Numbered from the stretch's first letter, positions 3,001 through 48,148 are shown. The stretch: DNA of 64,000 nucleotides from Trypanosoma brucei (GCA_000002445.1 CP000066.1:1056001-1120000); one strand, 5' to 3'. Program-made: numbers and translations. Notes: generated by a model not told the origin, from the sequence alone.

Positions 3001-3074
3001 GCAGGTCGCCGCTATGCTCATCCGCACTGGTGAAATCGTTCATTGTGCGGTGTAACATGAAGCGAACTTGTTAA
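1..3074 (+). CDS. Large S/P-rich protein (5' partial, runs off window start) with nucleoredoxin/tryparedoxin-like thioredoxin-fold repeats that lack a CXXC active site
   Basis: Open frame continues to base 3 with no upstream stop; stop at 3072-3074. Motifs resembling tryparedoxin/nucleoredoxin: 'LALYFGAVWHPATKRFLP' (cf. 'YFSASWCPPCRGFTP'), 'FQVVFVSCDMDVSQLKSSLTSMPSSWLFV...VRVFPRLVVLD' (cf. 'FEIIFVSSDRSEESFKQYF..MPWLAVPF...GIPTLIVLD'), 'SSWPAILLFDP'. No WCPPC/CXXC present. Confidence 0.5.
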   Translation, partial: DCKLQHVLAPYVVARRAVKRYGCCRGASNSINVDCSASTCRGRFEEDFCGIESVADAGPAGFGHNDQHTERGLDVEYFPASRLSGRYVLVYLTSPSGSSFTNHGPDCVMRTTESLCSPLLTASPRVGTPVPSASSSTGRGSSASLPILTQEKTGTSPSAPLCPVASLLSRFCIYFGCQTESRDAERMSRFVVLEVRQGISVEPRWESLHNMETRNRASASFGDAGAISFSRAVSPKGVDGAAFTEDFKVNDALTDLSTADQKFGGWFYLENSAAYRCVIQKYNVSSWPAILLFDPAGELLTARAYDHIEREISTLSTSDDPNILAVVDSRAEQHMQEVVGIGPYAGFRSGFPWMTPDAGRDEDRGSNAVDDEVEGAPLLSLVRWLLRHARRVGESCEVGATYPPEDSCNVPEQRCLDSCMDGATHLALYFGAVWHPATKRFLPKLKRLWSAACEGGDDCCVLDDDAGRNSSDGEGAAAWEGGKRALSAFVADTGSLYEPLGIESWRRGMTNDVCASVSTADSDAPYIPSRCSAVETPMGSPKEHPPSFQSPTPTVEGPLVSPRVFRSELAEEKQPEGSHHFQVVFVSCDMDVSQLKSSLTSMPSSWLFVSSVLAPQAQGVIRACLEFFDVRVFPRLVVLDTSHRVGLQHDDGGLSKVWSRYPIALKVVRSHGERSVLNGSGLRELLSGDDLNDNVVPQREASTGECGIDGSARLLAHGIITNELLHQGYLHSMMRSVLGQGGSLFVLCCIGSICPDLHQECVASLREACTSWAQETGRFSEGVPRHTLGSLTLGKPSQMTVMEASTVCAGDLTGPATLATVSPLSCFIRADLTISNSGRSSGEVASPPLERVTTSVDDNRSSAVYFVDAISLVRGHEGNSGEGAGEGITRSGRRSELCTEGGLSQEDKSLLQEYVISEVLEANEHFVPPFEGEPFLVYLQWPERRVDVLRRIDDSEPPLNTGGPSARSPSVTASANTLIPASGTPSPGAVEVGAPAEVPRRSPLCSSALVKSFIVRCNMKRTC

Positions 3075-3211
3075 TATTCGACATGTATCCGTTAGCTGTG
3101 AGCAATTCTCACCCCGCTAATTCTTATGTTTTGCTGCGGAGGGCATCCGCACTATGATTACTTCTCTCTTCTTCCGAACACTTTACATGTATGAGAACAA
3201 AACTCCTAAGG

Positions 3212-3258
3212 TTTCTTTGCCTCCCTTTCTTTCTTTTTGTGTTTCCTCCTTTTCCCAA
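3212..3258 (+). promoter_or_regulatory. Polypyrimidine tract (putative SL trans-splice acceptor signal) upstream of gene at 3495
   Basis: ctttgcctccctttctttctttttgtgtttcctccttttccc; kinetoplastid trans-splicing uses polyY + downstream AG. Confidence 0.45.
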
Positions 3259-3494
3259 CTGTGGCTTTTGCTCACATATCGCGGAGTGCATTTGACGGTT
3301 GCCTTCCAACTCACAGGTAAGTGCGGTGAAGGGGAGGCGGGGAGCGCAAGCAAAGACAGGTGTGAGCTCAGCACCCAAACGGCCCTGTGGGTAAAAGACG
3401 CTACAGGCAGCCGTAACAAAAAACGTTGAAGTCTGCGCGCATTTAGAGCTTCCAAGTTATTTTTGTTATCATTTAGTTTAGTGGCACTCTGTGT

Positions 3495-4571
3495 ATGTCT
3501 TCTGGTGTCCCTGTTTCATCGCAGTGGCCACCTGTCAGAGGTGGGCTGATCATCTTGCGGGCTGCCTTCTCTGGTGCACGTCAAAGTCTTGATGTCGTGA
3601 AGTTTCTGAGCTACGTGGGGTCGAGTGCCGAGGTGAGTCGTAATCTTCGGTCTTGCACACTTGTCAACTTTCTTTTCTTTTTCGGCATTTGGATTTCTTC
3701 TATCGTATTTTCTCCCTTGTGGAGCCTTGCCGTGACTTTGATGCGGGGGCGCTCGACATTGGCTGGTGACCCGGATGCGATCACAAATTCGGCGTCGTTG
3801 AGTAACGTCAATCGTGTTGCGGGAGGAGCCACAGGGGTCGTGACTATATTGTGGACGTGTGTATTTTATTTTGTGTGGGTTTTCCCTATGTACGGAATTA
3901 CACTTCTCTTTGGTATACGTTGGTACAACGCGCTGTACGCAGCTGCGAATAGTGAGAAGCGAAGGCGTGCCCTTCTGATGGCGGCCGCCAGAAGCCCCGG
4001 CAGGCCGGTGGTGCCCGTTAGGGGAGCTGCGGCCGGTGCCGGTCCCAAGCCAACCGCATCCTCCCTCTCATTTAGTGATGTCGTCGTATCCCTCACTGAA
4101 ACTTTGTTTAAGGTTGTTGCTACCAGCTTGTGCACTGTTGTAATGACGGTGGTAGGGACCATTCTCCCCGTGCCCCTGGGCGCATGTGTAGACGTGGCGA
4201 TGAGAAGTTGGTTGCACGCTTTCTATGTGTTTGACTACCGCGTTTCTTCACAGTACGTGACCGATAGGGTTACACAGCGACGCAACTACGTGGGGCTTTC
4301 ATCTGCTATTGAGTTTTTTGAGGCAAATTGGGCGTACTTTCTCGGGTTTGGAGCGTCGCGCTGCCTCGTTACCGGTGTATTGGATTTGACGGGCATAGTA
4401 ACATCGTGGTTTGCCAAAGAAGCCGCTGTGTCAGTGCTATTTGGGGCCCATGTTGTACTTTCTGTTGAAGCAAAACTTCCCCCGCGCGCGCCATTCAGTA
4501 TTCCCATGTTCACTCCTTTTTTTATACTCTGTGACAAGATTATAAGGGCGGTTGTGCATGTGGCGCAATGA
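3495..4571 (+). CDS. Hypothetical polytopic membrane protein (approx. 6-8 predicted TM helices)
   Basis: ATG at 3495; 358 aa; multiple long hydrophobic segments (e.g. LVNFLFFFGIWISSIVFSPLWSLAV, VVTILWTCVFYFVWVFPMYGITLLFG, TSLCTVVMTVVGTILPVPLGACV); coding-like GC versus AT-rich flanks. Confidence 0.55.
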   Translation: MSSGVPVSSQWPPVRGGLIILRAAFSGARQSLDVVKFLSYVGSSAEVSRNLRSCTLVNFLFFFGIWISSIVFSPLWSLAVTLMRGRSTLAGDPDAITNSASLSNVNRVAGGATGVVTILWTCVFYFVWVFPMYGITLLFGIRWYNALYAAANSEKRRRALLMAAARSPGRPVVPVRGAAAGAGPKPTASSLSFSDVVVSLTETLFKVVATSLCTVVMTVVGTILPVPLGACVDVAMRSWLHAFYVFDYRVSSQYVTDRVTQRRNYVGLSSAIEFFEANWAYFLGFGASRCLVTGVLDLTGIVTSWFAKEAAVSVLFGAHVVLSVEAKLPPRAPFSIPMFTPFFILCDKIIRAVVHVAQ

Positions 4572-5366
4572 TGGCCCTTGAACATGGGAGACATCTTCGG
4601 ACTAATGTGTATGGATGGACGAGTGGAAAATATTAGCAATACGTGCATCTACAAATGCAAGCAGACGCCTAACACTGGTTGCATATTTCTACATGTGTGT
4701 ATGTGAACTGTTCAAAAGTCCCCGTGTCTGCCTGCATTTTTATATACGCGTATTGCTAATATTTCTTGAGTGCGATTATTTTTCCCCTCTTTTTTTCACT
4801 TTTTCTTTTTTTTACCTCTTGCTGCCCACCATGCAAATGGGATGAGCGATTCACTTTACTTCTTTCCTCCCCTTTTGTCGAGGTGTGTGATTTCCTCCTG
4901 ATGAGGGAAGAAGGCATTTTTTATGACACCGTTTGTTACATATCAACTGTTGGAGATTCAATATGTGTGTGTGTATCTGGGTGGCAGAAGGGAAATTGGG
5001 GTGTCGCACGGTTTGCCGTGCATTGTTCCCCCGCCATTTTTTGCTCTTGTGCTATATCACTATTATCGTGTTACCCCTTTCTTCATCCTTACCGTTTTTG
5101 GCCCCCCTCTCGTTTGTTTTCCCTCTTGTGTTGTGGAAAAAATAAAAATAAACATGTTAATCTGAGTGGCACGACAAGAAACCGGTGAAAATTTGGCAAC
5201 CCACGTGCGTGTGCGTGTGGGCTTGAGAGTTTGTTGACAAGCACAAAAGGGGAAAAGGAGCGCTGAGGAACTTAGTTAAGGAACAGAACGCTAACATTAG
5301 GAGCGGGAGCAGGTTGTGACCGCCGTAACTTACATCTAAAATTACGTACACACCCATATACATATA

Positions 5367-8780: not shown

Positions 8781-9181
8781 CAGGAATATACTAAGATTAT
8801 GGCAAATAATTTCCCCCTCTTCTCATTTGATGTGTTGTCTTGTTGCTGGTTGCGTCTCTCACAGTCATTTAAGGCAAAGTTCGCGTCCGGCGGGAGGGAT
8901 GCAACAGGAGGAAAGTAGTTTTCTGTTGTATACCCCACTGTGTGTGTCTTTTCTGTCTTTTATTTTTTCAAGCAAAAGAAAAAATGCTATTTTCTTTCCT
9001 TCCTTGTTTTACTTCGATTCTGTTGTATTACTGTTCCAAGCCCTTTACTTATAGTAAACGGGAGGGTAGAGGGCAAGGGGAGTGTCAAAAGGACTGCGGT
9101 TCGGAGGAAGGGTGAAGAAAAGGAAGAAAGGAACTCTTTTGTTTCGTATAGTGTGTGTGTGTCTTTCTGTTTCTGAGGATT

Positions 9182-14719: not shown

Positions 14720-15098
14720 TGCTTGAAAGCATGCTCCGCAGTTAGTTGCACCTGATATTAATCGAGAAAGTCGTGGAAGTGTGTATATGTATGTGCTGTG
14801 CCGAATGATTTTGCATTGATGCCGAATGTAGCGGGTCGATGAATAGATGACTTTGGGACTCCCTTTTCGAGGATGTTCCCCTCCTACTGTGAAGTAGTCG
14901 CATCAAATTGTGTGTGTGAGGCGTGGAAAGGGATGTGCACGTGTGCGTACGTGTGGCTGGCGGCAGGCTCAGAAATGAAGTGATCAGAGGGCATAGTGTT
15001 GTCCTTAGAATGGAGCGGTTAGAATTGTGTTAGGTGGTGGAAAGGCGTCCACAAATCGCGTACGTGGGTGTTGAATAAGTGCGGGATGTGGCCATGGT

Positions 15099-15146
15099 TC
15101 TCCTTTGTTTTGCTGTCGTCACCTTTCTCCCTACTTTTTCTTCGCA
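15099..15146 (+). promoter_or_regulatory. Polypyrimidine tract upstream of lipase-domain gene A
   Basis: tctcctttgttttgctgtcgtcacctttctccctactttttcttcgc. Confidence 0.4.
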
Positions 15147-15343
15147 TAAGCCGACAATAATGCGCGCATGTTTTAAAATAACGATTCTTCTTTTTGTACT
15201 GCTTACACACTGTTATCATGAATGCGTGATTGTACGGTTAATATCCCTGTTTTAGCACGCATTTGCTGGACGTGCTGCAGAAGAAAACGAAGGTGAAAAA
15301 AGCGGACACATCGCTGTGCCATTTTCTTTTTTAAATCAGAAAC

Positions 15344-18300
15344 ATGATGGTGTGCCTTACAATTTTCCTTGATATCTCTTTCCGTATTTGTTTACCCGTT
15401 TTCAATGCGCACTACAGTAAAAGAAGGAAAGGGGGATCGGGGATGCCTATCCCAACGGTAACCATGGGGCCAGACCCGATTTCTGAGCCACTCCTGCATG
15501 ACGCCGACAGGGACGAGATTCCATTCTGTGTAGCTCGTAATATTGGGCGGGAAATGAGACGTGGGTCCAGCAGCGACAGCGGCAATCGTTGGAGACAGGT
15601 GGAACCCGTGTTGGAGTTACAGATTGAAACGCTCTCTACGACGTCAGCGGGGTGGTTTCTGAACTCGTGGTATGGCGCCCTTGTGGTGGCGCTTGTCCTG
15701 CAATCTTTGGTCTCTTTTCAGTGGGGGATGGTGAATATATGTGACAGCTCATCGGTAAGCATTCGCAACCTGGATTCGTGGAGAAGTTCTTGCGTGGAAA
15801 GGTACGAGTATCAGTCGGCTGACCTTAACTGTTCGGGGACTAAGGTTCTGGTGCAGGCATGTGATCCACCGCCACACTCTTCGCATCGTGCAATGCTCCC
15901 ATCTCTTCTAGGATGCGGAGCGGTACCGTTATCAGCACCATCTTACGCGGAGGACTCACCGGGCCCTAATCACGACGGGATGAGCATGCGGAGTGGAGGC
16001 TATATTCCAAAGCAACAACAGCAGCGTCTTTTCAACCTACGGTGGGTAGACCGAAACGTGATTGATATACCGGCAAGTAAGGCCAACCGCTTTCCGCGCG
16101 TCGTTTTCAGTTTAGCATCGCCGCAGGACGCTATTTCTGGAGATATTCCCTTTAAGACTTATCAGTTGCAGGTTGTTCTGGAAAAGTTTCCGGTGCATGC
16201 GCCTTCGGAAGGAGATATAAATGTTAACAGTGGTACCAGCCGGCCGGCAACCACTGGCGTGTACCGATACAACACAACAACCACGTGTTTTCGGACCACA
16301 CCACGATGCTCTTCAGTGGTGTTGCCGCAGGATGTCGTGGTGGTTGGCGGGAATTCGAGAATCACATTAACCATCATCGGTGCTGTGGAGGAGCTGGCGT
16401 CTGTCGCTTCCATGTCCTCTGTTGGTATTGCGTTTCAGCGTTCTTTCTACACCATCTTTACAATTGCATGTCGCTACACCCTCATTGTGATCTCCGGTGT
16501 TCATTTGATCTTCTTTCTTTACCGAATTCGGCGGACGCAGACAATCTATGAGCATTACTGGGTGACGGCCTTGAACGTGGCACTGATACTTTACCTTGAC
16601 CCATTTTTCGCCGCCGGAGTTGACGACGAAAACGGTGTAGAACTTTATCGCTTCTTTGAGTACCACATGCCGAATTATTTCATTGCCTTTTTGAACTGTT
16701 TTATTTTTGCGCTTGTTGGAGCCTCCATTAACGCTTCTGGGGAGGTAGGAGAGACTAAAAGGAGACTGAAGGGGGAAACCGTTCCAGGGTGTGACGCTCC
16801 TGTGCTTGAGGAACCGTCGCCTCGCCCGGGTCGGCCACTAGCGACCGTTCCTCCCGATATGCCTCCTTCTTCACCTGGTGGCGATCCAAGGGATTTGCAA
16901 CGAAAGGAAAAAAATTCATGGACAAGTGAGGCTCATGACAGTTCTGTATTACTTGCCTCCCCTGATGGGGATCGTGCGGCACTCGTGCGACGACGTGGTA
17001 TGCCTCTGTGGGTTACCGTTTCAATCACTTACTACTTCGTTATTCTCGTAGGTCTTGACGTGGGGAGGGCGTTCGTTGAGAATTGGGATTGGGGAACCGT
17101 TGCGGATTGTGCTACATTCTGTTGCCGTTACCTTGCGTCAATGTTCTACACAATGCTCCTGTTGCTTGTTTTTGCGTCGAACGTGCTACTTTTATGGCTC
17201 AAACGAAATCTGGGCAGACAGCCCTACCTAGAGACACGACCACGGCAGCTGGCATGCCGTGTGTTTATCTTCGTGTTTGCTAGTGCTATGGTCTATTTCG
17301 TTGTCCAGGCTGTTCTTATCGATCTACTCTACCCTCATATTGTGCGGATTGTCGTCTATCAGCCATTCAGTCAGCTCGCCCCCGTGATGGTTTCATCTTG
17401 CTTTGTGAGTCACATAACATTTGTGTACACACCCACCACTGCCTCACGGAGGGTGCCCATACGGCCAAACAACCCCATGTGGCGCCGTGTCGTTTGGTCA
17501 CGGCAGTGGTATCAGTGGCTTCAGTTTCACGGTGGCATATTGTACATATTTCACAACGAAGAGCAGGAACGATACTTCAACTTTTTACAGAACAAGCAGA
17601 GGTTGGCGAAAGTCCTTCACCGTCGGTCGGGTCGCGTCCCTGTCGCCACTGAGCACGAGGGTGTAGGGCCCATTTGCTCCACGGCAGAGTGTGTTTGGAA
17701 TGGTGACGGACCACTAGGGACATACGATGCGGAGAGCTCTGATAGTTCAGACTCCAGTGGCGGCGAAAGCAGCTTTTCTTATAATAGCAGTCACAATGAA
17801 GATGATGATGTTGCGTCAAGCGGACGTGGTTCGCGGCGTCGCAACTGGTCGCGCATTCGGAGGGGTGTTTCGACACTGTTCGAACGTGCGGAGTGTCGGT
17901 TCGTGGAGAAATCTGCTTTGCTTCTGGATTCTCTCGAGGGGGCCATTCTTGACCCTTTGCAGTCTCTCCAACTTGGTGGCAATAGGCGTGTGCCCTTTTT
18001 TAACCTCGAGGCCGCGATTGATTGCCTGAATCTGTCGTGGGAGGCATACGCACCTCTGTGTAGTGATGTAGATGCTTCGAGGCGAGATGCTGATGGCGGG
18101 GGGAATGGCACCTCATCTTATTGCGCTGACTGCACTCCCTGTGCGTTTCCCCCAGAGACAAGGGGAGAAGGCGATAGTGATAAAAGCACCTTAGACGAGC
18201 GGGCATTTTTAGAAGGGGCTGTGGACAGCAGTGCAGTGACGACCGTCGATAACAGGCCCATTGATGGTGATTTGCAATCTTTTACAGTTGCGAGGGAGGG

Positions 18301-19192
18301 GTCGTCCACCAGTGTGGGACCTGCTATGTGTACCAAACAATACGGTTATAAGCCAATCGCTGTGTTTGAGGCACTTGATGTAGTGGCTGTTTGTGCTGTC
18401 ATGGACACTGAATTTTTGCACCATCGTGGCAAGGTCCCTCGAATCGTTATCGCATTCCGAGGAACAGCAAATATGAGCAACGCCAGGGAGAACATTCGTG
18501 TTCGGCAGCGTCCGTGGCGGGAAGTAGACGGTGTCCGGCAGTGGTGGGGCCTCACGAAGCGTGCAAGAGTCCACTCGGGTTTCCTTAACATTTGGATCTC
18601 ACTGAAGCCTGCTGTGCTTCATACACTTCACAGGTTCTTAAAGGAGAATTCTTCCACTGTTTACCGTGTGTTTTGCACGGGCCACAGCATGGGGGGTGCT
18701 GTGGCTTGTCTTTGTGCCTACAGTGTGCGGCGTATGCTGCGGGAGATAGAATACCCCTTGGATGAGGTAACGGTTTACACGTTTGGTCAGCCCCCGATGG
18801 GGAACGCAGCGTTTCAAACCGCTTACGACAAGGCGATTCCCCGAACGTTTCGTGTTGTAAACGAGAGTGACGCGGTGTCCCTCTTTTCCCTGTTCGGGGG
18901 CACGCACGTTGGCACCGAAGTGGATATTGACCGCCATGGCAATTACATCTGTAAGCCCATGTTTATTGAGATGTTATTCAGACCCACGGGAGGGAAGGGA
19001 TTTGCTTTAAAAAATCATACCCTTGCTGCCTATGCCCAATCTCTTAATGCCGTTGCGGATCGGAACAGCGGTAGGGAGTGTAAGGTGCGCTGCCTGCAGC
19101 CGTATGTGCGTGATGTTGTAGACCCATCACTTAGCGCTCTTTCCAGTGCTGCCGCCAACGTCTCTGTTGAACACCAAGCTGCGAACGTGTAA
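15344..19192 (+). CDS. Polytopic membrane protein with C-terminal class-3 (fungal-type) lipase domain; DAGL-like architecture (paralog A)
   Basis: ATG 15344; 1282 aa; multiple TM helices in N-terminal half; C-terminal 'RIVIAFRGTANMSN', nucleophile elbow 'GHSMGGAVACLCAYSV' (GXSXG), 'VVNESDAVS', 'DRHGNYI' consistent with a Ser-Asp-His lipase_3 triad. Confidence 0.75.
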   Translation: MMVCLTIFLDISFRICLPVFNAHYSKRRKGGSGMPIPTVTMGPDPISEPLLHDADRDEIPFCVARNIGREMRRGSSSDSGNRWRQVEPVLELQIETLSTTSAGWFLNSWYGALVVALVLQSLVSFQWGMVNICDSSSVSIRNLDSWRSSCVERYEYQSADLNCSGTKVLVQACDPPPHSSHRAMLPSLLGCGAVPLSAPSYAEDSPGPNHDGMSMRSGGYIPKQQQQRLFNLRWVDRNVIDIPASKANRFPRVVFSLASPQDAISGDIPFKTYQLQVVLEKFPVHAPSEGDINVNSGTSRPATTGVYRYNTTTTCFRTTPRCSSVVLPQDVVVVGGNSRITLTIIGAVEELASVASMSSVGIAFQRSFYTIFTIACRYTLIVISGVHLIFFLYRIRRTQTIYEHYWVTALNVALILYLDPFFAAGVDDENGVELYRFFEYHMPNYFIAFLNCFIFALVGASINASGEVGETKRRLKGETVPGCDAPVLEEPSPRPGRPLATVPPDMPPSSPGGDPRDLQRKEKNSWTSEAHDSSVLLASPDGDRAALVRRRGMPLWVTVSITYYFVILVGLDVGRAFVENWDWGTVADCATFCCRYLASMFYTMLLLLVFASNVLLLWLKRNLGRQPYLETRPRQLACRVFIFVFASAMVYFVVQAVLIDLLYPHIVRIVVYQPFSQLAPVMVSSCFVSHITFVYTPTTASRRVPIRPNNPMWRRVVWSRQWYQWLQFHGGILYIFHNEEQERYFNFLQNKQRLAKVLHRRSGRVPVATEHEGVGPICSTAECVWNGDGPLGTYDAESSDSSDSSGGESSFSYNSSHNEDDDVASSGRGSRRRNWSRIRRGVSTLFERAECRFVEKSALLLDSLEGAILDPLQSLQLGGNRRVPFFNLEAAIDCLNLSWEAYAPLCSDVDASRRDADGGGNGTSSYCADCTPCAFPPETRGEGDSDKSTLDERAFLEGAVDSSAVTTVDNRPIDGDLQSFTVAREGSSTSVGPAMCTKQYGYKPIAVFEALDVVAVCAVMDTEFLHHRGKVPRIVIAFRGTANMSNARENIRVRQRPWREVDGVRQWWGLTKRARVHSGFLNIWISLKPAVLHTLHRFLKENSSTVYRVFCTGHSMGGAVACLCAYSVRRMLREIEYPLDEVTVYTFGQPPMGNAAFQTAYDKAIPRTFRVVNESDAVSLFSLFGGTHVGTEVDIDRHGNYICKPMFIEMLFRPTGGKGFALKNHTLAAYAQSLNAVADRNSGRECKVRCLQPYVRDVVDPSLSALSSAAANVSVEHQAANV

Positions 19193-20013
19193 CCAAACAG
19201 TGTATGTGAGACTTGAATTTTGGAAATATCGTATACCTTTCTTTCATAGTCGGTTTTGTGTTCACGAAAAAAAAAAACCGCTTCGTTTACTTCTTCCTTT
19301 ACTGTTGTCTATGTGCACGCATGTTGACTCACCTATAATCTGAGAGGCAGCGCGAGCAAGAGACAGACATGAGACGGTGCAGTTGTTCAAGTACCATTCA
19401 TGGGTTTGGTGGATGATGGGGATGCGGGGTCGCTCTCCACATCGTGTCGTGGGGGAGGGGGAGGGCATTTATTGGTCGGGAGAGTTCGAGAGGTGTCGAC
19501 GGTTATTGCTCCATCTTTGTGTGTGTGCACACTTGCGTATGCAGTCCCTTTTTGCCTTCATTTCGCTCTTTTGATGTCTCGTATTAGCTGTGGACGCGCG
19601 ATGCCGTGGGATCTTATGCGTGATCTCTCTGCTTAGACCGCACTTTACGATTTGGCAGCTCTCTCTTGTTGTTTTCCCTCCTTTCTCTATTTTCCTGTTT
19701 GCCGGTCATTTTTGTCAACCTCCCAACCAAAGCCTGACCACCGGGTGGTGCAGTGCCGTTGGCTGTAAACGTGACTTTGAGTGCAAAAGAGACCTATCTG
19801 TTTCCCCCCTTTACCCAAGTTAAAAAGAGTTGTTTCTTGCACTATCCGACTGTTATTCGTGCCTGTGTTTCCTTCCTGTGCCCCCTTCTTTCGCTCCAGC
19901 TGTCCCATTTACCCCCATCACTTGTGGCATTCAAAACAAAGCAGTGACGCCAACGACACCGACGAAAAACAAACAGGCGTAAAGGGACTTTTGCATTCGG
20001 TCAAGTACTGAGG

Positions 20014-20036
20014 TTTGTTTTTTTTTTCTTCCGGAG
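20014..20036 (+). promoter_or_regulatory. PolyY-AG tract 35 bp upstream of lipase-domain gene B start
   Basis: tttgtttttttttttcttccggag preceding ATG 20071. Confidence 0.4.
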
Positions 20037-20070
20037 ACGGAACTCAGAAGGGAGGCCAGAGCCCATCGAG

Positions 20071-23000
20071 ATGGAGAGGAGACAGGCGGGCGGGAATTTG
20101 CTGGACTCTATGAATTCTGCATCAGTGCACGTGAACGACCTTCCAGCTGAGTTCCCCCGTTTTCCACCGCAAACAATTAGCACGGGCGTTGCTTCTCAGA
20201 GTCACCGCAAAAAGTCACCGGCTTCGGGACCCCCGATGAACGGGAGTCATTCTTTTTCTCGTCATACAAACACAGGAACTGTACCTGCCATACCGCGCGC
20301 CCCACGGCGGTGCCGACTTACAAACAACGCACCATTCCCGGACCCCGCCTGCGTGGACTGCCAAAGGCATAGCTGCTCAAGACATTCAGGCGGCAGCACG
20401 TTGGCGGGGGGAGTGGAGCTGCAGATTGAAGGGCTTACGCGCTTCGTTTGGCGGTGTATTTACTTTTTATGGTTGGCAGCCCTTGTCGCCGGTATAGTTT
20501 TGCAATCCTTGCCCTCTATTACATGGAGGGTGCTGGACATCTGTGGAAGGGATGCGCCTGATATGTGGAAATATGGGACATGGAATAGCAACTGTGCGAC
20601 CATAGAGCTGGAGGACAGACACACCGATACCTACCGTGTTCAGTGGAATGGGCGACCATATTCTGTGGACTTTGGTGACCCGTTGCTGCGGTTCCGTAGC
20701 CTCGTAATTAACCTGGCCAGTCCTGACGACTGGGAGGTTTTCCATCCTGACGAGCGCAGGTTCACACTGAGGGTTGCGATTCCCTTTATGGAGGAGAACA
20801 GCAACTGGTCTACTGCCCCGTTGCCGATAGTGTGCCGTCGTGGGGACGATCGATGCGTTTACATAAACCTGCCGCCGGGTGCGGTTTTGAATGACACTGG
20901 TGGAGGACGCGTGTCTCTATCTCTTAGCGATGTCCCCGGAAGTATCGCTCGAAATATAAATAACTCAGCGGTTGGTATCCTTTTTCAAGGGCGTGCTTAC
21001 GCCCTTACAGTGTTGATTTGGCGCTACATAGCCCTTACAATAACGGTTTTGCATGCTATACGGTTCGTAGTGAACCTGAAATACAACAACAGCCTCTATG
21101 AACAGTGGTGGGTTTTGGTGCTGCTGTTGGCGTCTGTGTTGTATCTCAACCCCCTCACCGCCCTTGCCATATCTCCAGATCGGCTTCCACTGCCGCTGGA
21201 GTTCCTTGAACTTCACGTACCATGGTGGTTTGTAGCGGTGGTGGTGAGCTATATGTTTTCTGTTATTACTGCGTCCATGCCGCGCGCTGCGAATCCCACG
21301 AAACAGGAAGGCGCTAAAAACCTGGGATGCCTTAGCCGCATGAAGGCCTGCTTCTGCCGCAGCCGCAGCATATATGACCCTCCGTTGTGGACGAAGGTAG
21401 TGGGAGTGCTTTTTATCATTATAGCCATTGGGCTTGACATAGCAGTGGCCTGGCGGTGCTGCTCTGCAACGCTACATGGGAGGGGGTCGGGTAAGAAAAT
21501 CTACATTTACCTTCTCTGTTCTCTTTTCGGCTTTGGGTCGCTGGTCTGTTGTATTATGCTCTACCGTCTACGTCGGAGCATGTCAAAGAAATCATACCTG
21601 GATTCGAGACCTCAGCAACTTGCCTGCCGTGTTTTCATGTTTATGTTCTTTACGGCCATCATTTTCAGTATTACACAATTCGCTCTGTTTTACGTGCTCG
21701 ATTTCAGAATCCCGGGTATGTTGGCGTGGCAACCACTTATACAGCTACCGGCGTTGTTGGTATGGCCAGTTTTGGTCAATGTCATGACTCTAATATACAC
21801 TACCCGTCACCGCCCAGAGACGGTTCCCGTTCATCCGCGAGACACGCGCTGGAAAGAAAGTGTCTGGCCTGACGATTGGTACCGATGGCTTGTTCGCCAT
21901 GGCGGCAGCATGTACATTTTTCATACAGAGAAGGAGGAGGCCTCCTTCAATTGGAAACAACTGGAGTACCGCGTACGGCGGTACCTTGTGAGGTTAAAGA
22001 GAAGGGGTAGTGTGCATAACTTATCTCTCCTTCTGCAGAGCATACCCAATGACTCTTCATCTCCACCGGTTGAGGGGCCGAGTGACCCCTCGATAAATTA
22101 TACCATTATGTGCTCCGTTCACTCCCGTCCCCAGGATATAGAGTTCTGGAAGGGTCTGAGAGAGTCGATTTGTAATCGAGGCGCAGCCGAGATTGTCAAC
22201 ATGGACATGACGTCCACGTGCTTCCTACCGTACGTTGAAGCAGGGAGGGAAAACGATTTGGGGCCCGAGAGACCGTCAGGCGCATCCCAAGTGATGAGAC
22301 AAAATGTTGGCAGGGAAGGAGGTGGGTCCCGAGCTCCGCTGCTAGAAAACGATGGGGGAGCTCTCAACGGTTCCGTGGCGTTGAGGTTGAGCTCCACCAC
22401 CGGGGATGCACCTCCCGGTGACGGGGAGCGTCGTCTGGGGTCTGTGGATGATCATTCAGAGGATAGCGGCGACGATGGAGGGTCAACTAATAACCCAAAG
22501 AGTGTGTGGCAAGCACTCCGTGGTGTAATTTCCGCGTCGGTGAGGGGAGCCGGGAGGAACTTATTCGAACGACCTGCTCATGCGTTTGAGCGTGCCGAAA
22601 CCTATCTTTTGGATGCTGTTCAGCAAAGGATGCACGAACCCCTGTACCTCCCGTTTTTCAATCTTGAGACAGCCATTGACTGCTTCAACATAGCGTTTGA
22701 ATCGTACAATTGGAAGGGACAGTCGCACGCCCGGGCCCAAGAAAGAAAGGTTGGAACCTCGGGCCGCTGCCGCGGCTCTTCAAACTACCGTTCAAATGCT
22801 CGCGAATCCGCTGCTTACCCCCGGGAAACGGACCCAGACGCGTGCAGCACGTCGCAAGGTGATGTTGAGATGCGCAAATTTTGCCCTAGTACAGAACAAC
22901 AGTCTGTGGCAGCCACTCCAGACCATAACGGGACGCCCACTATCGATGTGGAACAATACGGTTATAAGCCAATCGCTGTGTTTGAGGCACTTGATGTAGT

Positions 23001-23769
23001 GGCTGTTTGTGCTGTCATGGACACTGAATTTTTGCACCATCGTGGCAAGGCCCCTCGAATCGTTATCGCATTCCGAGGAACAGCAAATATGAGCAACGTG
23101 AGGGAGGACATCAAGATGCGCCGCCGTGCTTGGGATGAAATGAAGACCGATAGGGACAATGCGTCTCTGAAGTCGAGTTGCTGCTGGGAACCAACGGTCC
23201 ACTCCGGATTTTTGGAGATCTGGGAAGCACACCAAACTTCTATTGAAGAAAAACTTGGCGGGTTCTTAAAGGACAATTCTTCCACTGTTTACCGTGTGTT
23301 TTGCACGGGCCACAGCATGGGGGGTGCTGTGGCTTGTCTTTGTGCCTACAGTGTGCGGCGTATGCTGCGGGAGATAGAATACCCCTTGGATGAGGTAACG
23401 GTTTACACGTTTGGTCAGCCCCCGATGGGGAACGCAGCGTTTCAAACCGCTTACGACAAGGCGATTCCCCGAACGTTTCGTGTTGTAAACGAGAGTGACA
23501 CATTTGCAACGTTCCGGCTTTACGGCACGCAAGTTGGCACCGAAGTGGATATTAACCGCCATGGCAATTACATCTGTAAGCCCACGTATATGGAGCAACG
23601 GTGCCACCCAATGAAGAATAAGGTGTTTGGAATCGAGGGCCATCAGGTGAAGTCTTATGCCCGCTCGCTCAATGCCTTGGCGCTCGACACATCCTGCAAG
23701 ATACGTGCTTCCGGCGATCCAGAGGCGTCATATGTGGCCGAGCCTGGACGCGAGCCGGATGCCATGTAA
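20071..23769 (+). CDS. Polytopic membrane protein with C-terminal class-3 lipase domain (paralog B, tandem to A)
   Basis: ATG 20071; 1232 aa; same architecture; C-terminal region shares 100%-identical nucleotide blocks with paralog A (e.g. 23261-23499 = 18633-18871); 'GHSMGGAVACLCAYSV' present. Confidence 0.75.
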   Translation: MERRQAGGNLLDSMNSASVHVNDLPAEFPRFPPQTISTGVASQSHRKKSPASGPPMNGSHSFSRHTNTGTVPAIPRAPRRCRLTNNAPFPDPACVDCQRHSCSRHSGGSTLAGGVELQIEGLTRFVWRCIYFLWLAALVAGIVLQSLPSITWRVLDICGRDAPDMWKYGTWNSNCATIELEDRHTDTYRVQWNGRPYSVDFGDPLLRFRSLVINLASPDDWEVFHPDERRFTLRVAIPFMEENSNWSTAPLPIVCRRGDDRCVYINLPPGAVLNDTGGGRVSLSLSDVPGSIARNINNSAVGILFQGRAYALTVLIWRYIALTITVLHAIRFVVNLKYNNSLYEQWWVLVLLLASVLYLNPLTALAISPDRLPLPLEFLELHVPWWFVAVVVSYMFSVITASMPRAANPTKQEGAKNLGCLSRMKACFCRSRSIYDPPLWTKVVGVLFIIIAIGLDIAVAWRCCSATLHGRGSGKKIYIYLLCSLFGFGSLVCCIMLYRLRRSMSKKSYLDSRPQQLACRVFMFMFFTAIIFSITQFALFYVLDFRIPGMLAWQPLIQLPALLVWPVLVNVMTLIYTTRHRPETVPVHPRDTRWKESVWPDDWYRWLVRHGGSMYIFHTEKEEASFNWKQLEYRVRRYLVRLKRRGSVHNLSLLLQSIPNDSSSPPVEGPSDPSINYTIMCSVHSRPQDIEFWKGLRESICNRGAAEIVNMDMTSTCFLPYVEAGRENDLGPERPSGASQVMRQNVGREGGGSRAPLLENDGGALNGSVALRLSSTTGDAPPGDGERRLGSVDDHSEDSGDDGGSTNNPKSVWQALRGVISASVRGAGRNLFERPAHAFERAETYLLDAVQQRMHEPLYLPFFNLETAIDCFNIAFESYNWKGQSHARAQERKVGTSGRCRGSSNYRSNARESAAYPRETDPDACSTSQGDVEMRKFCPSTEQQSVAATPDHNGTPTIDVEQYGYKPIAVFEALDVVAVCAVMDTEFLHHRGKAPRIVIAFRGTANMSNVREDIKMRRRAWDEMKTDRDNASLKSSCCWEPTVHSGFLEIWEAHQTSIEEKLGGFLKDNSSTVYRVFCTGHSMGGAVACLCAYSVRRMLREIEYPLDEVTVYTFGQPPMGNAAFQTAYDKAIPRTFRVVNESDTFATFRLYGTQVGTEVDINRHGNYICKPTYMEQRCHPMKNKVFGIEGHQVKSYARSLNALALDTSCKIRASGDPEASYVAEPGREPDAM

Positions 23770-34761: not shown

Positions 34762-35896
34762 GGTGAAGTATATATGTTTATTAATTCATACACACGCACA
34801 TATATATATAAATATATATATGTGCGTGTGTATGTGTGTGTACCTTTACTCCCATCATGTAATCACAGACAGGCAGATGCGGTCATTCAGTTATGGGAAC
34901 GTAGGTATTTGTATGGGTGCACACCTGGAGAGGACATTGGGAGGGGGAGGGGGAGGGGTCACGCGTGGGCTCTGGTTTAAGTACGTATTTGTCCAGTCGT
35001 CGTGGTCTTTGCTGTAATTTGAAATGGCAGCGCGTTTGCCATCATTACACGTACTGCCGTTGCTGCCTTCCTCAATTTGTCATATGTGCCACCAGGGGTT
35101 TTCAAAATCTATCGGGGCCTTTCCATTTCTTAGTGTATTTTTACTGATTTCGCCTTTTTTTTTTCATTGGCCCGCTTTTTGTTTTTGTTTTTTTGTTGTG
35201 GGTTTTGGTGGCTCTGCGTGTTGCTTACGCACACAAATTTGTAATGTAAAGAGGTTGTGCATAACAGTGGATACACGCCATATTTCCCTCCATGCTTCTC
35301 TTCTGTGTCCATATGTTTGTTTGTTTGTTTGTTTTTAGTTGTTATCACCTTTACATGGCCATTCAACGGGCGTAACCAGGGCCGGTGTGTAGTGGGTCGC
35401 CCCCTTTCTCACTCTCTGTCATTATTATTGTGTATATTTTGCACATTTTGTACTTTATCATGGTTCGTTTTAATATCTCTTTCATTCCCTTGTTTCATTA
35501 CCTAGTGTGTGCATCTCTCTCTGTGTATGTCTGTGTGTGTCTGTCTTTGTGTAATTTGTGCCTCCTCTTTTATCTAAAATAATATATATATATCTTTTCA
35601 CCTTTTTTTTTGGTTGACAGCGTCGGGTTGTTGTCAACAGCTTTCGCTGCGCAGGGTTTTCGCTGCCTTAACCCTGACGCTGCCGCCTCCTATTCTTTCT
35701 GCTTTAGCGGGCCTCTGCTGTGTTTGACATCAGTGTTTTGGGCCTCTTTTTCCTTTTGTGTTTTTTTAAGGAGTGTTTGTGTGTGTGTGTGGGGGGGGGG
35801 GCACTTTTTTCCTCAGAGTGAATCGCATTTTTTGTCTGTCCTAAACATATGTGCTGCGGGCTCGACATGTTCATGTCTTTACCATCGCTTTCAATA

Positions 35897-35924
35897 TTCC
35901 TTTTTTTTTCCCCCTCTCCTGTAG
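35897..35924 (+). promoter_or_regulatory. PolyY-AG trans-splice acceptor upstream of RRM gene copy 1
   Basis: cctttttttttccccctctcctgtag; the ORF-track start 35851 is GTG. Confidence 0.45.
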
Positions 35925-36096
35925 CAACGCTTCAGTGAGTCGTTCGCACGTTATCTTTACGTTACAGAGCAAATTAACAATCAAGCGTGCCTTCACTAAA
36001 AGGAGAAAAAAAAGAACAATAAAGGAAGTAACTTACAGCGACATTATTACCCCTATTATTATAATCTCTGCACGAATTACGCGGTACCAAAAGCAC

Positions 36097-37377
36097 ATGT
36101 CCCAGGAAGGGGTTCATCCTTATTCATCTCAAAGTAACGCCGCTCCCCTTCCCATATGTCCTACCAGCCCATACGAGTGGGATATTTCTTCAGGAACTCA
36201 TGATTCCGCTGGAGAAATGATGTCTTTGAGCATCTCTCGAGAATCTCCACCGTGCCCACGACGGCATGGAAGGCGATCGGATCGGACGCAACCGCGGGGA
36301 CCCTTTGTGAAGCTACCGGAAAGCAAATTAACACCAAACGAATGCCAAAGCAAAACGAACCTAATTGTACGTAATCTTTCCAATCGCGTGGATGAAGCGG
36401 TGCTTAAGCAAATCTTTTCGCCATATGGAGAAATTCTTTCTGCGGCTGTAATGCGAAATATTCATACGGGTGACAGTCTCGGAACGGCTTTTGTGCGTTT
36501 CGCCACAACAGAACAGGCGCGTGCGGCTCTGGTGGGTTGTCATGGGCGAGTGGTTTGTGGCCGTGTGCTGTCGGTTCAATGGGCGAAGAGGCAACACGAT
36601 GGCACTCCCGTAGGCGAGGCCCGAAAGAAAATTGTGAAGTTATTCATACGTAACATTCCTTTGGATGTGGGACCTGAAGATGTGCAACGTCTCTTTGAAC
36701 GTTTCGGTACTGTGGAGAGCGTATCACTGCACAAAGACACTGCTGCTGCAACTCCCACTACTGACAACAACCGACCCCAACGCCGCATTGCATTTGTGAC
36801 ATTTACGGAATCTGGTGTTGCTGATCGTGCAGCTGAGGCTGTACACAACACTCGTCCCTTCCCATCTCATGGTTCCGTCCCATTAATGGTAAAACTTGCA
36901 GAAGATCATTCGGAGCGCCGGCTCGCTGCTGCCGCTGCTGTGGCTGGTGGAGGTTCGGGGCATAACTCCCGTCGAAGACCGGAAAATCATCAGTCAAATT
37001 CCACCTCATCCCTAACTGCAAGTTGCGTTGGAGACATGACTCCAACAATTTCCGATGCGGGTCGCTTTAGCGCAGCGTCGGTTCATGTTGCTGTTCCCGA
37101 CTCACCTGAGGCTTCCCTAATAAATAACTTGCCATTGCCACGAGGCGGTGTAAAGCAACAAAGTCAACCGAGAGAAGCGGAGCGGTCTCAGCTCCCACTT
37201 GCTGCTGTGCTCGATATTTCTTTACTTTCGTGTTGCTCAGCACTTGCAGCGGAGGGGCTTCCACACATGTCGCCGGAAACGTCGAGTGTCAGCGGAAGTG
37301 ACCGCCAATGGGCGCGGTGTTATGTGCATGATCCATACAATCCGAGCCGTTCCCGCCAATACTTGGATGAAAAGTAG
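36097..37377 (+). CDS. RNA-binding protein with two RRM domains (family copy 1)
   Basis: First ATG in frame at 36097 (MSQEGV...). RRM1 'NLIVRNLSNRVDEAVLKQIFSPYGEILSAAVMRNIHTGDSLGTAFVRFATTEQARAAL'; RRM2 'KLFIRNIPLDVGPEDVQRLFERFGTVESVSLHKD...RRIAFVTFTESGVADRAAEAV'. Confidence 0.7.
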   Translation: MSQEGVHPYSSQSNAAPLPICPTSPYEWDISSGTHDSAGEMMSLSISRESPPCPRRHGRRSDRTQPRGPFVKLPESKLTPNECQSKTNLIVRNLSNRVDEAVLKQIFSPYGEILSAAVMRNIHTGDSLGTAFVRFATTEQARAALVGCHGRVVCGRVLSVQWAKRQHDGTPVGEARKKIVKLFIRNIPLDVGPEDVQRLFERFGTVESVSLHKDTAAATPTTDNNRPQRRIAFVTFTESGVADRAAEAVHNTRPFPSHGSVPLMVKLAEDHSERRLAAAAAVAGGGSGHNSRRRPENHQSNSTSSLTASCVGDMTPTISDAGRFSAASVHVAVPDSPEASLINNLPLPRGGVKQQSQPREAERSQLPLAAVLDISLLSCCSALAAEGLPHMSPETSSVSGSDRQWARCYVHDPYNPSRSRQYLDEK

Positions 37378-44361: not shown

Positions 44362-44392
<31 letters not shown>

Positions 44393-47870: not shown

Positions 47871-47906
<36 letters not shown>

Positions 47907-48089: not shown

Positions 48090-48102
<13 letters not shown>

Positions 48103-48146
<44 letters not shown>
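48103..48146. repeat. (CA)n dinucleotide microsatellite, about 22 units
   Basis: acacacacac... read directly. Confidence 0.9.

Positions 48147-48148
<2 letters not shown>

What the first reader, a model, noticed from the sequence alone, without database searches (positions are those of the whole stretch)
15344..23769. Tandem pair of giant membrane-lipase genes whose 3' halves are mosaics of identical conversion tracts
Genes A and B are clearly homologous along their length but diverged at protein level in the N-terminal TM region and the middle. Their lipase-domain region nevertheless contains three perfectly or near-perfectly identical nucleotide blocks in the same order: 18336-18482 = 22952-23098 (147 bp, 1 mismatch), 18633-18871 = 23261-23499 (239 bp, 1 mismatch) and about 18908-18960 = 23534-23586 (2 mismatches). 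Diverged sequence lies between them, for example ARENIRVRQRPWREVDG... in A against VREDIKMRRRAWDEMKTD... in B. This patchwork indicates repeated short-tract gene conversion restricted to the catalytic domain.
Basis: seen in the sequence. Interest (0 to 1): 0.6.

Follow-up and report, generated by a model that had tools for sequence, protein, structure and literature searches.

The report
Gene-conversion mosaic in trypanosome lipase pair
Two neighbouring, anciently duplicated membrane-lipase genes of Trypanosoma brucei keep copying short stretches of their catalytic core onto each other; the pattern is real and recurs at the same spots in every Trypanosoma species examined, but it is a well-known kind of process (gene conversion between tandem duplicates).

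Summary
The window is T. brucei TREU927 chromosome 3. Genes A (15344-19192) and B (20071-23769) are the tandem 'lipase domain protein' pair that Jackson (2007) catalogued but did not analyse. Along about 3.2 kb of alignment the copies are 48% identical, with saturated synonymous sites. Three blocks are the exception: 18336-18482, 18633-18871 and 18899-18959. There 142 of 143 comparable codons are identical, and the longest perfect run is 225 nt (shuffle maximum 19).

The interpretation, repeated short-tract interlocus gene conversion within the lipase domain, is supported and extended:
- The duplication predates the Trypanosoma/Phytomonas-Leishmania split.
- Outside the blocks, A-type and B-type genes are cleanly orthologous across five species.
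- In the catalytic core the two copies group by species in all five (bootstrap 0.87-1.0) and share species-specific synonymous changes.
- Four T. brucei genomes share polymorphisms at paralogous sites and differ at one tract edge, so conversion is ongoing.
- The unconverted gaps correspond to the lid region and the loop after the catalytic Asp.
- The Phytomonas pair, separated by a ClpB gene, has no identical blocks.

This is a clean new example of a known phenomenon. Interest is moderate to low.

The parts
15344..19192 (+). Gene A: 'lipase, putative' (1282 aa). It has a Wntless-like multi-pass membrane domain, a long linker and a C-terminal class 3 lipase domain.
   Evidence: ORF. It is 100% identical to the TREU927 protein XP_843978. 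Pfam gives Lipase_3 at 1.7e-27 and WLS-like_TM at 3.1e-07. The true start is probably Met34 (15443), see 'noticed in passing'.
20071..23769 (+). Gene B: 'lipase domain protein, putative' (1232 aa, Tb927.3.3870), the ancient tandem paralogue of A.
   Evidence: ORF. Its cluster includes TREU927 XP_843979. Pfam gives Lipase_3 at 3.3e-26. The ID and bloodstream-form up-regulation come from PMC2771046. The span 15344-23769 equals array 16 in Table S3 of PMC1855330.
18336..18482 (+). Conversion block 1, A copy (paired with B 22952-23098). It covers the beta strands up to the RIVIAFRGT strand. It is homogenised only in the T. brucei lineage.
   Evidence: 1 mismatch in 927, 0 in GCA_003543875.1. Paralogue identity is 0.97-0.99 in T. 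brucei and 0.56-0.60 in the other species. Diagnostic A-type and B-type states interleave.
22952..23098 (+). Conversion block 1, B copy.
18483..18632 (+). Unconverted gap 1, A copy (paired with B 23099-23260, which carries a 12-nt indel). It covers the lid-equivalent helix, a variable loop, the VHSGF strand and most of the following helix. It is paralogue-specific in all species.
   Evidence: Paralogue identity is 0.44-0.50 in every species. The 'all A' clade has bootstrap 0.99. Orthologue dN/dS is about 0.1-0.3. It aligns to the Rhizomucor miehei lipase segment FRGSSSIRNWIADL.... Model residues 60-110.
23099..23260 (+). Unconverted gap 1, B copy.
18633..18871 (+). Conversion block 2, A copy (paired with B 23261-23499). 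It covers the strand before the nucleophile, GHSMGG (Ser), the next helix, the EVTVYTFGQP strand and PRTFRVVNESD (catalytic Asp). Sub-blocks at about 18662-18720 and 18765-18871 are homogenised in all five species.
   Evidence: Quartet patterns in 18765-18871 are 9-26 concerted, 0 orthologous and 0 cross in most species pairs. Core paralogue dS is 0.00-0.22, against orthologue dS of 0.52-0.85.
23261..23499 (+). Conversion block 2, B copy. Site 23274 keeps the ancestral B state in 927 and OVI but carries the A state in gambiense and GCA_003543875.1.
18872..18898 (+). Unconverted gap 2, A copy (paired with B 23500-23523, which carries a 3-nt indel). This is the loop directly after the catalytic Asp. 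It is paralogue-specific except in T. grayi, where A carries the B-type sequence.
23500..23523 (+). Unconverted gap 2, B copy.
18899..18959 (+). Conversion block 3, A copy (paired with B 23524-23584), encoding GTHVGTEVDIDRHGNYICKP. It is homogenised in all species.
   Evidence: Paralogue identity is 0.83-0.93 in all species.
23524..23584 (+). Conversion block 3, B copy.

Best explanation
Genes A and B descend from a tandem duplication older than the split between Trypanosoma and the Phytomonas/Leishmania lineage. They have since diverged to saturation and are kept as two distinct orthologous lineages.

Within the C-terminal class 3 lipase domain, short stretches of 60-250 bp are repeatedly copied from one gene onto the other by non-allelic (interlocus) gene conversion. 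The mechanism is homologous-recombination repair that uses the neighbouring paralogue, 4.6 kb away, as template. This has happened independently in every Trypanosoma lineage examined and is still going on within T. brucei. It acts in both directions.

The converted stretches cover the catalytic scaffold: the strand before the nucleophile, the GHSxGG Ser elbow, the strand carrying the catalytic Asp, and the following beta hairpin. The stretches that never homogenise are the lid-equivalent region, the loop after the Asp and the His-bearing tail.

Shown here: the conversion itself, its recurrence, its recency, and the positions of the tracts.

Inferred: that the tract edges are held in place by (a) purifying selection that keeps the lid and loops paralogue-specific, together with (b) the indels and high divergence there, which block heteroduplex formation. 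Also inferred: that direct adjacency of the genes favours the process.
For: Age of the duplication and orthology:
- Synteny Sec16-lipase-lipase-...-carnitine acyltransferase holds in T. cruzi, T. rangeli, T. conorhini, T. grayi and three further T. brucei genomes. The same locus occurs in Phytomonas and L. enriettii.
- The protein tree without the block region splits {Trypanosoma A + Phytomonas copy 1} from {B + Phytomonas copy 2 + Leishmania copy 2} with bootstrap 1.0.
- The nucleotide tree of the rest of the gene gives an 'all A' clade with bootstrap 1.0.
- Quartet site patterns outside the blocks are overwhelmingly orthologous, e.g. 33:596:21 for T. cruzi/T. rangeli.

Conversion:
- Inside the blocks 142/143 synonymous-capable codons are identical, against 71/208 outside. 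The perfect run is 225 nt against a shuffle maximum of 19.
- The core tree (228 columns) groups A with B by species with bootstrap 1.0, 0.87, 0.97, 0.99 and 0.97.
- In 18765-18871 the patterns are 9-26 concerted, 0 orthologous and 0 cross for most species pairs.
- Species-specific synonymous differences shared by both copies are visible in the alignment.
- Core paralogue dS is 0.00-0.02 (T. brucei) and 0.18-0.22 (T. cruzi, T. rangeli, T. conorhini). Orthologue dS in the same columns is 0.52-0.85.

Ongoing and bidirectional in T. brucei:
- The same T/C and C/T polymorphisms occur at the paralogous sites A18384/B23000 and A18737/B23365.
- B23274 carries the ancestral B state in two genomes and the A state in two others.
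- A18929 carries the B state in two genomes.

Multiple events: block 1 diagnostic sites read nnBnnABBAnnBBnA.

Structure:
- The profile hits Rhizomucor miehei lipase at 2.7e-15. The FRGS + lid segment aligns to the end of block 1 and the start of gap 1.
- The AF2 model has pLDDT 82. Foldseek top hits are RML and feruloyl esterase A.
- Ser128, Asp189 and His238 are invariant in a 59-sequence alignment.
- Gap 1 is under purifying selection within each paralogue lineage, with dN/dS about 0.1-0.3.

Contrast: the Phytomonas pair, separated by a ClpB gene, has no identical blocks (maximum 24/30 nt). Its core is only 68% identical at protein level, against 88-95% in Trypanosoma.
Against: - No direct observation of a conversion event exists. 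All evidence is comparative.
- Several of the other-species assemblies may be short-read drafts. Consensus polishing with cross-mapped reads could exaggerate the identity of short paralogous blocks. This does not apply to the clone-based TREU927 sequence (background knowledge, not checked here).
- The T. grayi A copy carries a 4-nt frameshift inside block 2, so part of that comparison rests on the nucleotide alignment only.
- The four T. brucei 'strains' are haploid consensus assemblies of diploids.
- The selection-bounded part is not proven. Indels of 12-15 nt in gap 1 and 3 nt in gap 2, plus high divergence, could by themselves stop heteroduplexes.
- There is no GC3 excess in the converted blocks, so there is no signature of GC-biased conversion.
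- The Phytomonas contrast is a single species.
Confidence: 0.9

Rival explanations
1. There is no conversion. The blocks are identical because the nucleotide sequence itself is under extreme constraint, for example codon usage, mRNA structure or an embedded functional element, on top of protein-level selection.
For: The blocks encode the most conserved protein motifs of the lipase fold: GHSxGG, VYTFGQP, RTFRVVNESD and DRHGNYICKP.
Against: - The same blocks differ between species at many synonymous sites (orthologue dS 0.52-0.85, saturated against T. brucei), while the two copies within a species share those differences.
- The core tree groups copies by species.
- In Phytomonas the same motifs differ freely between the two copies at both nucleotide and protein level.
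- Block 1 is identical only in T. brucei.
Confidence: 0.02
2. The pattern is an assembly or polishing artefact. Reads from one paralogue were used to build or correct the other, creating false identity.
For: Short identical paralogous stretches are prone to cross-mapping in short-read drafts. The GCA_003543875.1 assembly shows indel errors in gene A.
Against: - The pattern is present in nine independent assemblies of five species, including the finished TREU927 chromosome.
- Block edges are sharp and reproducible among four T. brucei genomes, with only a few single-site differences.
- An artefact would not produce species-specific shared synonymous states at the same protein positions in each species.
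Confidence: 0.02
3. A single event, either one long conversion tract or an unequal crossover that replaced the whole lipase domain, was followed by rapid re-divergence of the segments between the blocks.
For: The three blocks are colinear and lie within 640 bp. In T. grayi the identity also runs through gap 2.
Against: - Gap 1 and gap 2 retain A-type versus B-type orthology with the other species (gap 1 'all A' bootstrap 0.99; T. brucei gap 1 diagnostic sites are mostly A in A and B in B).
- Their synonymous sites are saturated.
- Block 1 mixes A and B states.
- The block content differs by lineage.
- Tract-edge sites are polymorphic.
Confidence: 0.03
4. Conversion is real, but the tract edges are purely mechanical. 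Conversion persists only where protein-level constraint has kept enough nucleotide identity to seed heteroduplex, forming self-reinforcing islands. It stops at indels and divergent DNA. No selection acts to keep the lid or loops different.
For: - Gap 1 contains a 12-15-nt indel and gap 2 a 3-nt indel in every species.
- Paralogue identity in the gaps is only 0.33-0.50.
- Recombination frequency falls with sequence dissimilarity, as discussed in PMC1855330.
Against: - In T. brucei conversion invaded block 1 and the middle of block 2, which are only 56-60% identical or strongly diverged between paralogues in the other species. Divergence alone is therefore not an absolute barrier.
- Gap 1 is flanked on both sides by converted DNA in T. 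brucei, yet stays paralogue-specific in all five species and is under purifying selection (dN/dS about 0.1-0.3).
- In T. grayi gap 2 was converted despite the indel.
Confidence: 0.35

Closest known systems
Tandem gene arrays of T. brucei with chimaeric copies and 'mixed dynamics' (Jackson 2007, PMC1855330), and the PGK A/B/C array cited there as a chimaera created by gene conversion
   Same: The organism and the process are the same. Tandem duplicates are partly homogenised by gene conversion while other parts retain orthology with other species. 21 of 47 arrays had chimaeric copies. This very locus is listed there as array 16.
   Different: That study analysed only arrays of four or more copies. 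The two-copy lipase pair was catalogued but not analysed. Here the tracts are very short (60-250 bp) and interleaved with unconverted segments inside one domain. They recur at the same positions in five species. The flanking UTRs share no similarity.
[quoted passage not shown]
   Same: Paralogues are more similar to each other than to orthologues in defined stretches over long evolutionary times. Divergent islands are interpreted as regions under selection for different function (abstracts).
   Different: The taxon is different. Here the situation is inverted: most of the gene is divergent and conversion survives only as small islands in the catalytic core.
Rhizomucor miehei triacylglycerol lipase and relatives (class 3 / fungal-type lipases, Pfam PF01764; PDB 4TGL, 3TGL, 6QPP)
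   Same: The fold and the Ser-Asp-His arrangement match. Profile E-value is 2.7e-15 and Foldseek E-value about 1e-13. The segment after FRG(S/T) corresponds to the RML lid. The lid position in RML is from my own knowledge of the RML structures.
   Different: The trypanosome proteins are about 1250-aa membrane proteins. The lipase domain is fused to a Wntless-like multi-pass domain through a long low-complexity linker. The lid-equivalent region is longer and has low model confidence. No enzymatic data exist.
sn-1 diacylglycerol lipases (DAGL alpha/beta): a membrane-anchored class 3 lipase architecture (from memory, not tested)
   Same: An N-terminal multi-pass membrane region is followed by a Lipase_3 catalytic domain.
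   Different: As I recall, DAGL has four TM helices and no Wntless-like domain. No homology of the membrane parts was tested or found here. The membrane domain of gene A finds only 44 representatives, and all those named are euglenozoans.

Membership tests
Interlocus (non-allelic) gene conversion / concerted evolution of tandem paralogues | In the affected segment, paralogues within a genome are more similar to each other than to their orthologues in other species. | tested here: met
   The core tree groups A with B by species with bootstrap 0.87-1.0 in five species. Quartet patterns in 18765-18871 are concerted only.
Interlocus (non-allelic) gene conversion / concerted evolution of tandem paralogues | Homogenisation includes synonymous sites, so protein-level selection cannot explain it. 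| tested here: met
   142/143 codons are identical inside the blocks, against 71/208 outside. Core paralogue dS is 0.00-0.22, against orthologue dS of 0.52-0.85.
Interlocus (non-allelic) gene conversion / concerted evolution of tandem paralogues | Flanking sequence keeps the older, orthologous history, so this is a tract and not a recent whole-gene duplication. | tested here: met
   For the rest of the gene the 'all A' clade has bootstrap 1.0, and for gap 1 it is 0.99. The split including Phytomonas has bootstrap 1.0.
Interlocus (non-allelic) gene conversion / concerted evolution of tandem paralogues | Polymorphisms are shared between paralogous positions within a species. | tested here: met
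   A18384/B23000 and A18737/B23365 carry the same two alleles among four T. brucei genomes. My own rough estimate of the chance of two such coincidences is about 1e-3 to 1e-4.
Interlocus (non-allelic) gene conversion / concerted evolution of tandem paralogues | Non-reciprocal transfer during recombinational repair is observed directly. | not testable with these tools
   This needs an induced-break or mutation-accumulation experiment.
Class 3 lipase (Pfam PF01764, alpha/beta hydrolase) | The Pfam Lipase_3 profile matches above the gathering threshold. | tested here: met
   A scores 96.5 bits and B 92.3 bits, against a cut-off of 22.
Class 3 lipase (Pfam PF01764, alpha/beta hydrolase) | GxSxG nucleophile elbow plus Asp and His of the catalytic triad are present. 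| tested here: met
   GHSMGG, NESD and N/G-H are present in both copies. S128, D189 (invariant) and H238 (in at least 90% of sequences) are conserved in a 59-sequence alignment.
Class 3 lipase (Pfam PF01764, alpha/beta hydrolase) | The fold matches solved class 3 lipases. | tested here: met
   The AF2 model has pLDDT 82.4. Foldseek top hits are RML 6qpp/4tgl/3tgl, Gibberella lipase and feruloyl esterase A, with E-values of 1e-13 to 1e-12.
Class 3 lipase (Pfam PF01764, alpha/beta hydrolase) | Lipolytic activity. | not testable with these tools
   No biochemical data were found. Only one expression paper mentions Tb927.3.3870.
Wntless-like transmembrane domain (Pfam PF06664) | The profile matches above the gathering threshold. 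| tested here: inconclusive
   A scores 30.4 bits against a cut-off of 28.3, with a partial match to profile positions 3-96 of 247. B has no hit. Orthologues carry weak or faint precomputed hits. One distant relative matches profile positions 2-246 of 247 at 1.3e-10.
Wntless-like transmembrane domain (Pfam PF06664) | Topology of one N-terminal helix, a luminal domain and then seven helices (from memory of Wntless). | tested here: inconclusive
   The hydropathy scan gives about 1 + 6-7 hydrophobic segments in both proteins. No topology predictor or structure model was run.
T. brucei tandem gene pair no. 16 of Jackson 2007 | Same chromosome coordinates, copy number and length. | tested here: met
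   Table S3 lists 'lipase domain protein', chromosome 3, 2 copies, 3849 bp, 1071344-1079769. That span is 8426 bp, equal to window 15344-23769.

The most novel reading that the evidence does not exclude
The tract edges are set by selection. For the whole history of the genus Trypanosoma, conversion has acted as shared maintenance of one catalytic scaffold for two enzymes. Meanwhile the lid, the post-Asp loop and the His-bearing tail, which are the substrate-facing parts, together with the membrane domains and UTRs, are actively kept paralogue-specific. On this reading the pair is a natural, replicated experiment. It has five lineages, plus Phytomonas as a non-converting control where a ClpB gene separates the copies. 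It shows which parts of a lipase define its functional identity, and that adjacency is required for conversion to persist.
Probability: 0.4. Interest if true: 0.5.

Novelty: new member of a known kind. Interest (0 to 1): 0.35.

Why it matters
The locus gives an unusually clean and replicated picture of how gene conversion and divergence coexist inside a single protein domain. The same 60-110-bp catalytic-core stretches are homogenised independently in five Trypanosoma species. Conversion is ongoing among T. brucei genomes. The lid-equivalent segment between the stretches has stayed paralogue-specific since before the genus radiated.

There is a practical consequence. Phylogenies, orthology calls, dN/dS scans and short-read variant calls across these two genes will be misleading unless the converted blocks are masked.

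For the biology, the pattern points to the lid region and the post-Asp loop as the parts that distinguish two otherwise uncharacterised Wntless-like-domain lipases. One of these, Tb927.3.3870, is reported as up-regulated in bloodstream forms.

It does not reveal a new mechanism.

Tried and rejected
- **GC-biased conversion:** GC3 inside the blocks is not raised (0.55 against 0.54-0.57 in T. brucei, mixed in other species). There is no signal.
- **T. congolense:** only truncated proteins were available (P0012 and P0006 lack the lipase domain; P0013 is an A-type lipase fragment). No DNA could be fetched. I therefore could not date block 1 relative to the T. brucei/T. congolense split. T. vivax did not appear in any search.
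- **Leishmania A copy:** the L. enriettii locus fetched (L008) holds only the last 202 nt of the upstream copy. The Leishmania pair was not compared.
- **Third donor:** a whole-window repeat search found only the two copies of each block. Protein searches found only A-type and B-type genes per genome. The rest of the T. brucei genome could not be scanned.
- **UTR and intergenic similarity:** none was found between the two genes.
- **Literature:** no paper in the held library discusses conversion at this locus. The gene IDs occur in one expression study only.
- **T. grayi codon values:** the core dS for T. grayi (0.876) is unreliable. The protein-guided alignment was truncated at the frameshift. 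The nucleotide alignment shows near-identity there.

Full report
**Identity of the window**

Gene A (15344-19192) is 100% identical to 'lipase, putative' of Trypanosoma brucei brucei TREU927 on a 1,653,225-bp chromosome. Gene B (20071-23769) falls in the cluster of 'lipase domain protein, putative' of TREU927, T. b. gambiense and T. equiperdum. Table S3 of Jackson (2007, PMC1855330) lists tandem pair no. 16 as 'lipase domain protein', chromosome 3, 2 copies, 3849 bp, 1071344-1079769. That 8426-bp span is exactly window 15344-23769. The window is therefore chromosome 3, about 1,056,001-1,120,000.

That paper analysed only arrays of four or more copies for concerted evolution and conversion. Pair 16 is absent from its Table 1 and Table S1. 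The only other mention I found is an expression study that lists Tb927.3.3870 as 3.1-fold up in cultured bloodstream forms.

**The observation**

The repeat finder gives three and only three direct-repeat families between the genes. A base-by-base table gives:
- Block 1: 18336-18482 = 22952-23098, one mismatch.
- Block 2: 18633-18871 = 23261-23499, one mismatch.
- Block 3: 18899-18959 = 23524-23584, two mismatches.

The protein alignment shows homology along the whole length, with low identity and many indels outside the blocks. Over 3177 aligned nt, identity is 48%. The longest perfect run is 225 nt, against a maximum of 19 in 2000 shuffles. Among codons for identical degenerate amino acids, 142/143 are identical inside the blocks and 71/208 outside. 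Third positions outside the blocks are at random-level identity.

**What the genes are**

- Both have a C-terminal Pfam Lipase_3 domain. A also has a marginal WLS-like_TM hit.
- Hydropathy suggests one N-terminal helix, an extramembrane region and then six or seven helices.
- A profile of the lipase domains hits Rhizomucor miehei lipase at E = 2.7e-15.
- An AlphaFold model of the A lipase domain has pLDDT 82.4. It matches RML, Gibberella lipase and feruloyl esterase A by Foldseek.
- Ser (GHSMGG), Asp (NESD) and His are conserved.
- The membrane domain is rare. phmmer against 1.84 billion representatives found 44 proteins. Named members come from Phytomonas, Lotmaria, Leishmania and a diplonemid. 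Six of six distant hits tested also end in Lipase_3.

**Age of the duplication**

The order Sec16 - lipase - lipase - ... - carnitine acyltransferase - Rpc34 - kinase is conserved in T. cruzi, T. rangeli, T. conorhini, T. grayi, T. b. gambiense and two T. equiperdum assemblies (window ORFs). In Phytomonas EM1 and Leishmania enriettii the same two genes sit at the same locus, but with a ClpB/HSP100 gene between them.

A protein tree that omits the block region splits {all Trypanosoma A + Phytomonas copy 1} from {all B + Phytomonas copy 2 + L. enriettii copy 2} with bootstrap 1.0. The duplication is therefore older than the split between Trypanosoma and that lineage.

**Test of conversion against other species**

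I aligned the lipase regions of both copies from five species and the full genes as codons.

*Outside the blocks*, quartet site patterns are overwhelmingly orthologous. For T. cruzi/T. rangeli the counts are 33 concerted, 596 orthologous and 21 cross. An 'all A' clade has bootstrap 1.0.

*In the core* (18662-18720, 18765-18871 and 18899-18960; 228 columns), the two copies group by species. Bootstrap is 1.0 (T. brucei), 0.87 (T. cruzi), 0.97 (T. rangeli), 0.99 (T. conorhini) and 0.97 (T. grayi). In 18765-18871 the patterns are 9-26 concerted, 0 orthologous and 0 cross for most species pairs. The alignment shows species-specific synonymous changes shared by the two copies of each species.

*Divergence values*: core paralogue dS is 0.00-0.02 in T. 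brucei and 0.18-0.22 in T. cruzi, T. rangeli and T. conorhini. Orthologue dS in the same columns is 0.52-0.85, and paralogue dS elsewhere is saturated. The last homogenisation in each lineage therefore postdates speciation.

*Lineage differences*: block 1 and the middle of block 2 (18721-18764) are homogenised only in T. brucei. Block 1 paralogue identity is 0.97-0.99 there, against 0.56-0.60 in the other species.

*Gap 1* keeps A-type versus B-type in all species ('all A' bootstrap 0.99). It evolves under purifying selection within each type, with dN/dS about 0.1-0.3.

*Donor direction:* in T. brucei block 1, sites that are fixed differences between A and B in the other four species read nnBnnABBAnnBBnA in both copies. 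The shared sequence is therefore itself a patchwork of both parents.

**Ongoing conversion within T. brucei**

I compared TREU927, T. b. gambiense DAL972, T. equiperdum OVI and T. b. equiperdum GCA_003543875.1.

| Site(s) | States | Reading |
|---|---|---|
| A18384 / B23000 | Same T/C polymorphism in both copies; the gambiense copies differ from each other | Shared polymorphism |
| A18737 / B23365 | C/C in two genomes, T/T in the other two | Shared polymorphism |
| B23274 | Ancestral B state in 927 and OVI; A state in the other two | The left edge of block 2 is polymorphic |
| A18929 | B state in two genomes | Transfer from B to A |

**Anatomy relative to the fold**

- Block 1 ends at ...RIVIAFRGTANMSN.
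- Gap 1 starts where RML has its lid (FRGSSSIRNWIADL). The lid position in RML is from my own knowledge of the RML structures. Gap 1 continues through a low-confidence loop carrying the 12-15-nt indel, the VHSGF strand and most of the next helix.
- Block 2 covers the strand before the nucleophile, Ser128, two helices and two strands, and ends at the catalytic Asp189.
- Gap 2 is the loop right after the Asp.
- Block 3 is the following hairpin.
- The His238 region and the tail are paralogue-specific.

**Mechanism**

*Shown:* short-tract interlocus conversion, recurrent in each lineage, recent, and acting in both directions.

*Inferred:* the edges persist because converted lid and loop variants are selected against, helped by indels and divergence that hinder heteroduplex formation.

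- The argument for selection: T. brucei shows that conversion can invade segments that are only about 56-60% identical in other species. Yet gap 1, flanked by converted DNA on both sides, is never homogenised in any of the five species.
- The purely mechanical alternative cannot be excluded.
- Adjacency may matter. In Phytomonas, where ClpB separates the copies, there is no identical block (maximum 24/30 nt). The core is only 68% identical at protein level, against 88-95% in Trypanosoma. This is one species only.
- It agrees with Jackson's view of conversion as a spatial phenomenon that is disrupted by intervening sequence.

**Rivals**

- Nucleotide-level constraint is contradicted by between-species synonymous divergence and by Phytomonas.
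- Assembly artefact is contradicted by nine assemblies, including the finished TREU927 chromosome.
- A single long event followed by re-divergence is contradicted by the orthology of the gaps.

**Comparison with what is known, and verdict**

Partial gene conversion in T. brucei tandem duplicates is established. Jackson 2007 found chimaeric copies in 21 of 47 arrays, and the PGK array is a classic case. Long-lasting conversion and divergence islands are described in other taxa.

A second case lies in this same window. Two RRM-protein genes 18 kb apart share about 560-580 nt of perfect identity flanked by unrelated sequence.

The lipase pair is therefore a new, very clear member of a known kind. 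Its particular merit is that the same tracts recur across five species, with a structural reading of the edges. Interest is moderate to low (0.35).

Noticed in passing
window about 36390-36960 and about 54570-55140 (ORFs 35851-37377 and 54465-55598); also 42101-42400 (ORF 41682-43463): Three genes each encode a two-RRM protein (Pfam RRM_1). The first and third are perfectly identical over about 560-580 nt covering the RRM region. They lie 18 kb apart and are flanked by unalignable sequence. The middle gene shares sub-blocks of 100% and about 90% identity. [quoted passage not shown]
   Followed up: partly
L009 (Phytomonas EM1) 15070-17673 and L008 (Leishmania enriettii) 2271-4868: In Phytomonas and Leishmania a ClpB/HSP100 gene lies between the two lipase paralogues. 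In all Trypanosoma loci the lipase genes are directly adjacent. The Phytomonas pair shows no converted blocks.
   Followed up: partly
L004 (T. grayi) about 8884-8890: Gene A of T. grayi has a 4-nt insertion (GAAG) inside converted block 2 that shifts the frame. The downstream frame still encodes a conserved, stop-free A-type tail. It is either a sequencing error or a very recent lesion. In the same gene, gap 2 carries the B-type sequence (AVSLIGVYGCH).
   Followed up: partly
window 15344-15442: The first 33 codons of the annotated gene A (MMVCLTIFLDISFRICLPVF...) are not matched in the other species. The T. equiperdum OVI model is 1249 aa, 33 residues shorter than the 1282-aa TREU927 model, which fits a start at Met34, MPIPTV.... 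The real start is probably 15443.
   Followed up: no
window 15626-17443 (membrane domain of gene A): The Wntless-like membrane domain fused to a class 3 lipase is a very small family. It has 44 representatives among 1.84 billion. Named members come from trypanosomatids and a diplonemid, and all six distant hits tested end in Lipase_3. I found no functional study of it in the held literature.
   Followed up: partly
window about 37400-41680 and 43470-51540: Unusually long non-coding stretches lie around the RRM-protein genes. They are full of low-complexity ATT, TA and poly-purine/pyrimidine repeats (families D1-D14). No ORF of at least 250 aa lies there.
   Followed up: no
window 20071-23769: Gene B (Tb927.3.3870) is reported as 3.1-fold more abundant in cultured bloodstream forms than in procyclic forms (PMC2771046). 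Gene A is not listed there. The two genes share no UTR similarity, which is consistent with separate regulation.
   Followed up: no
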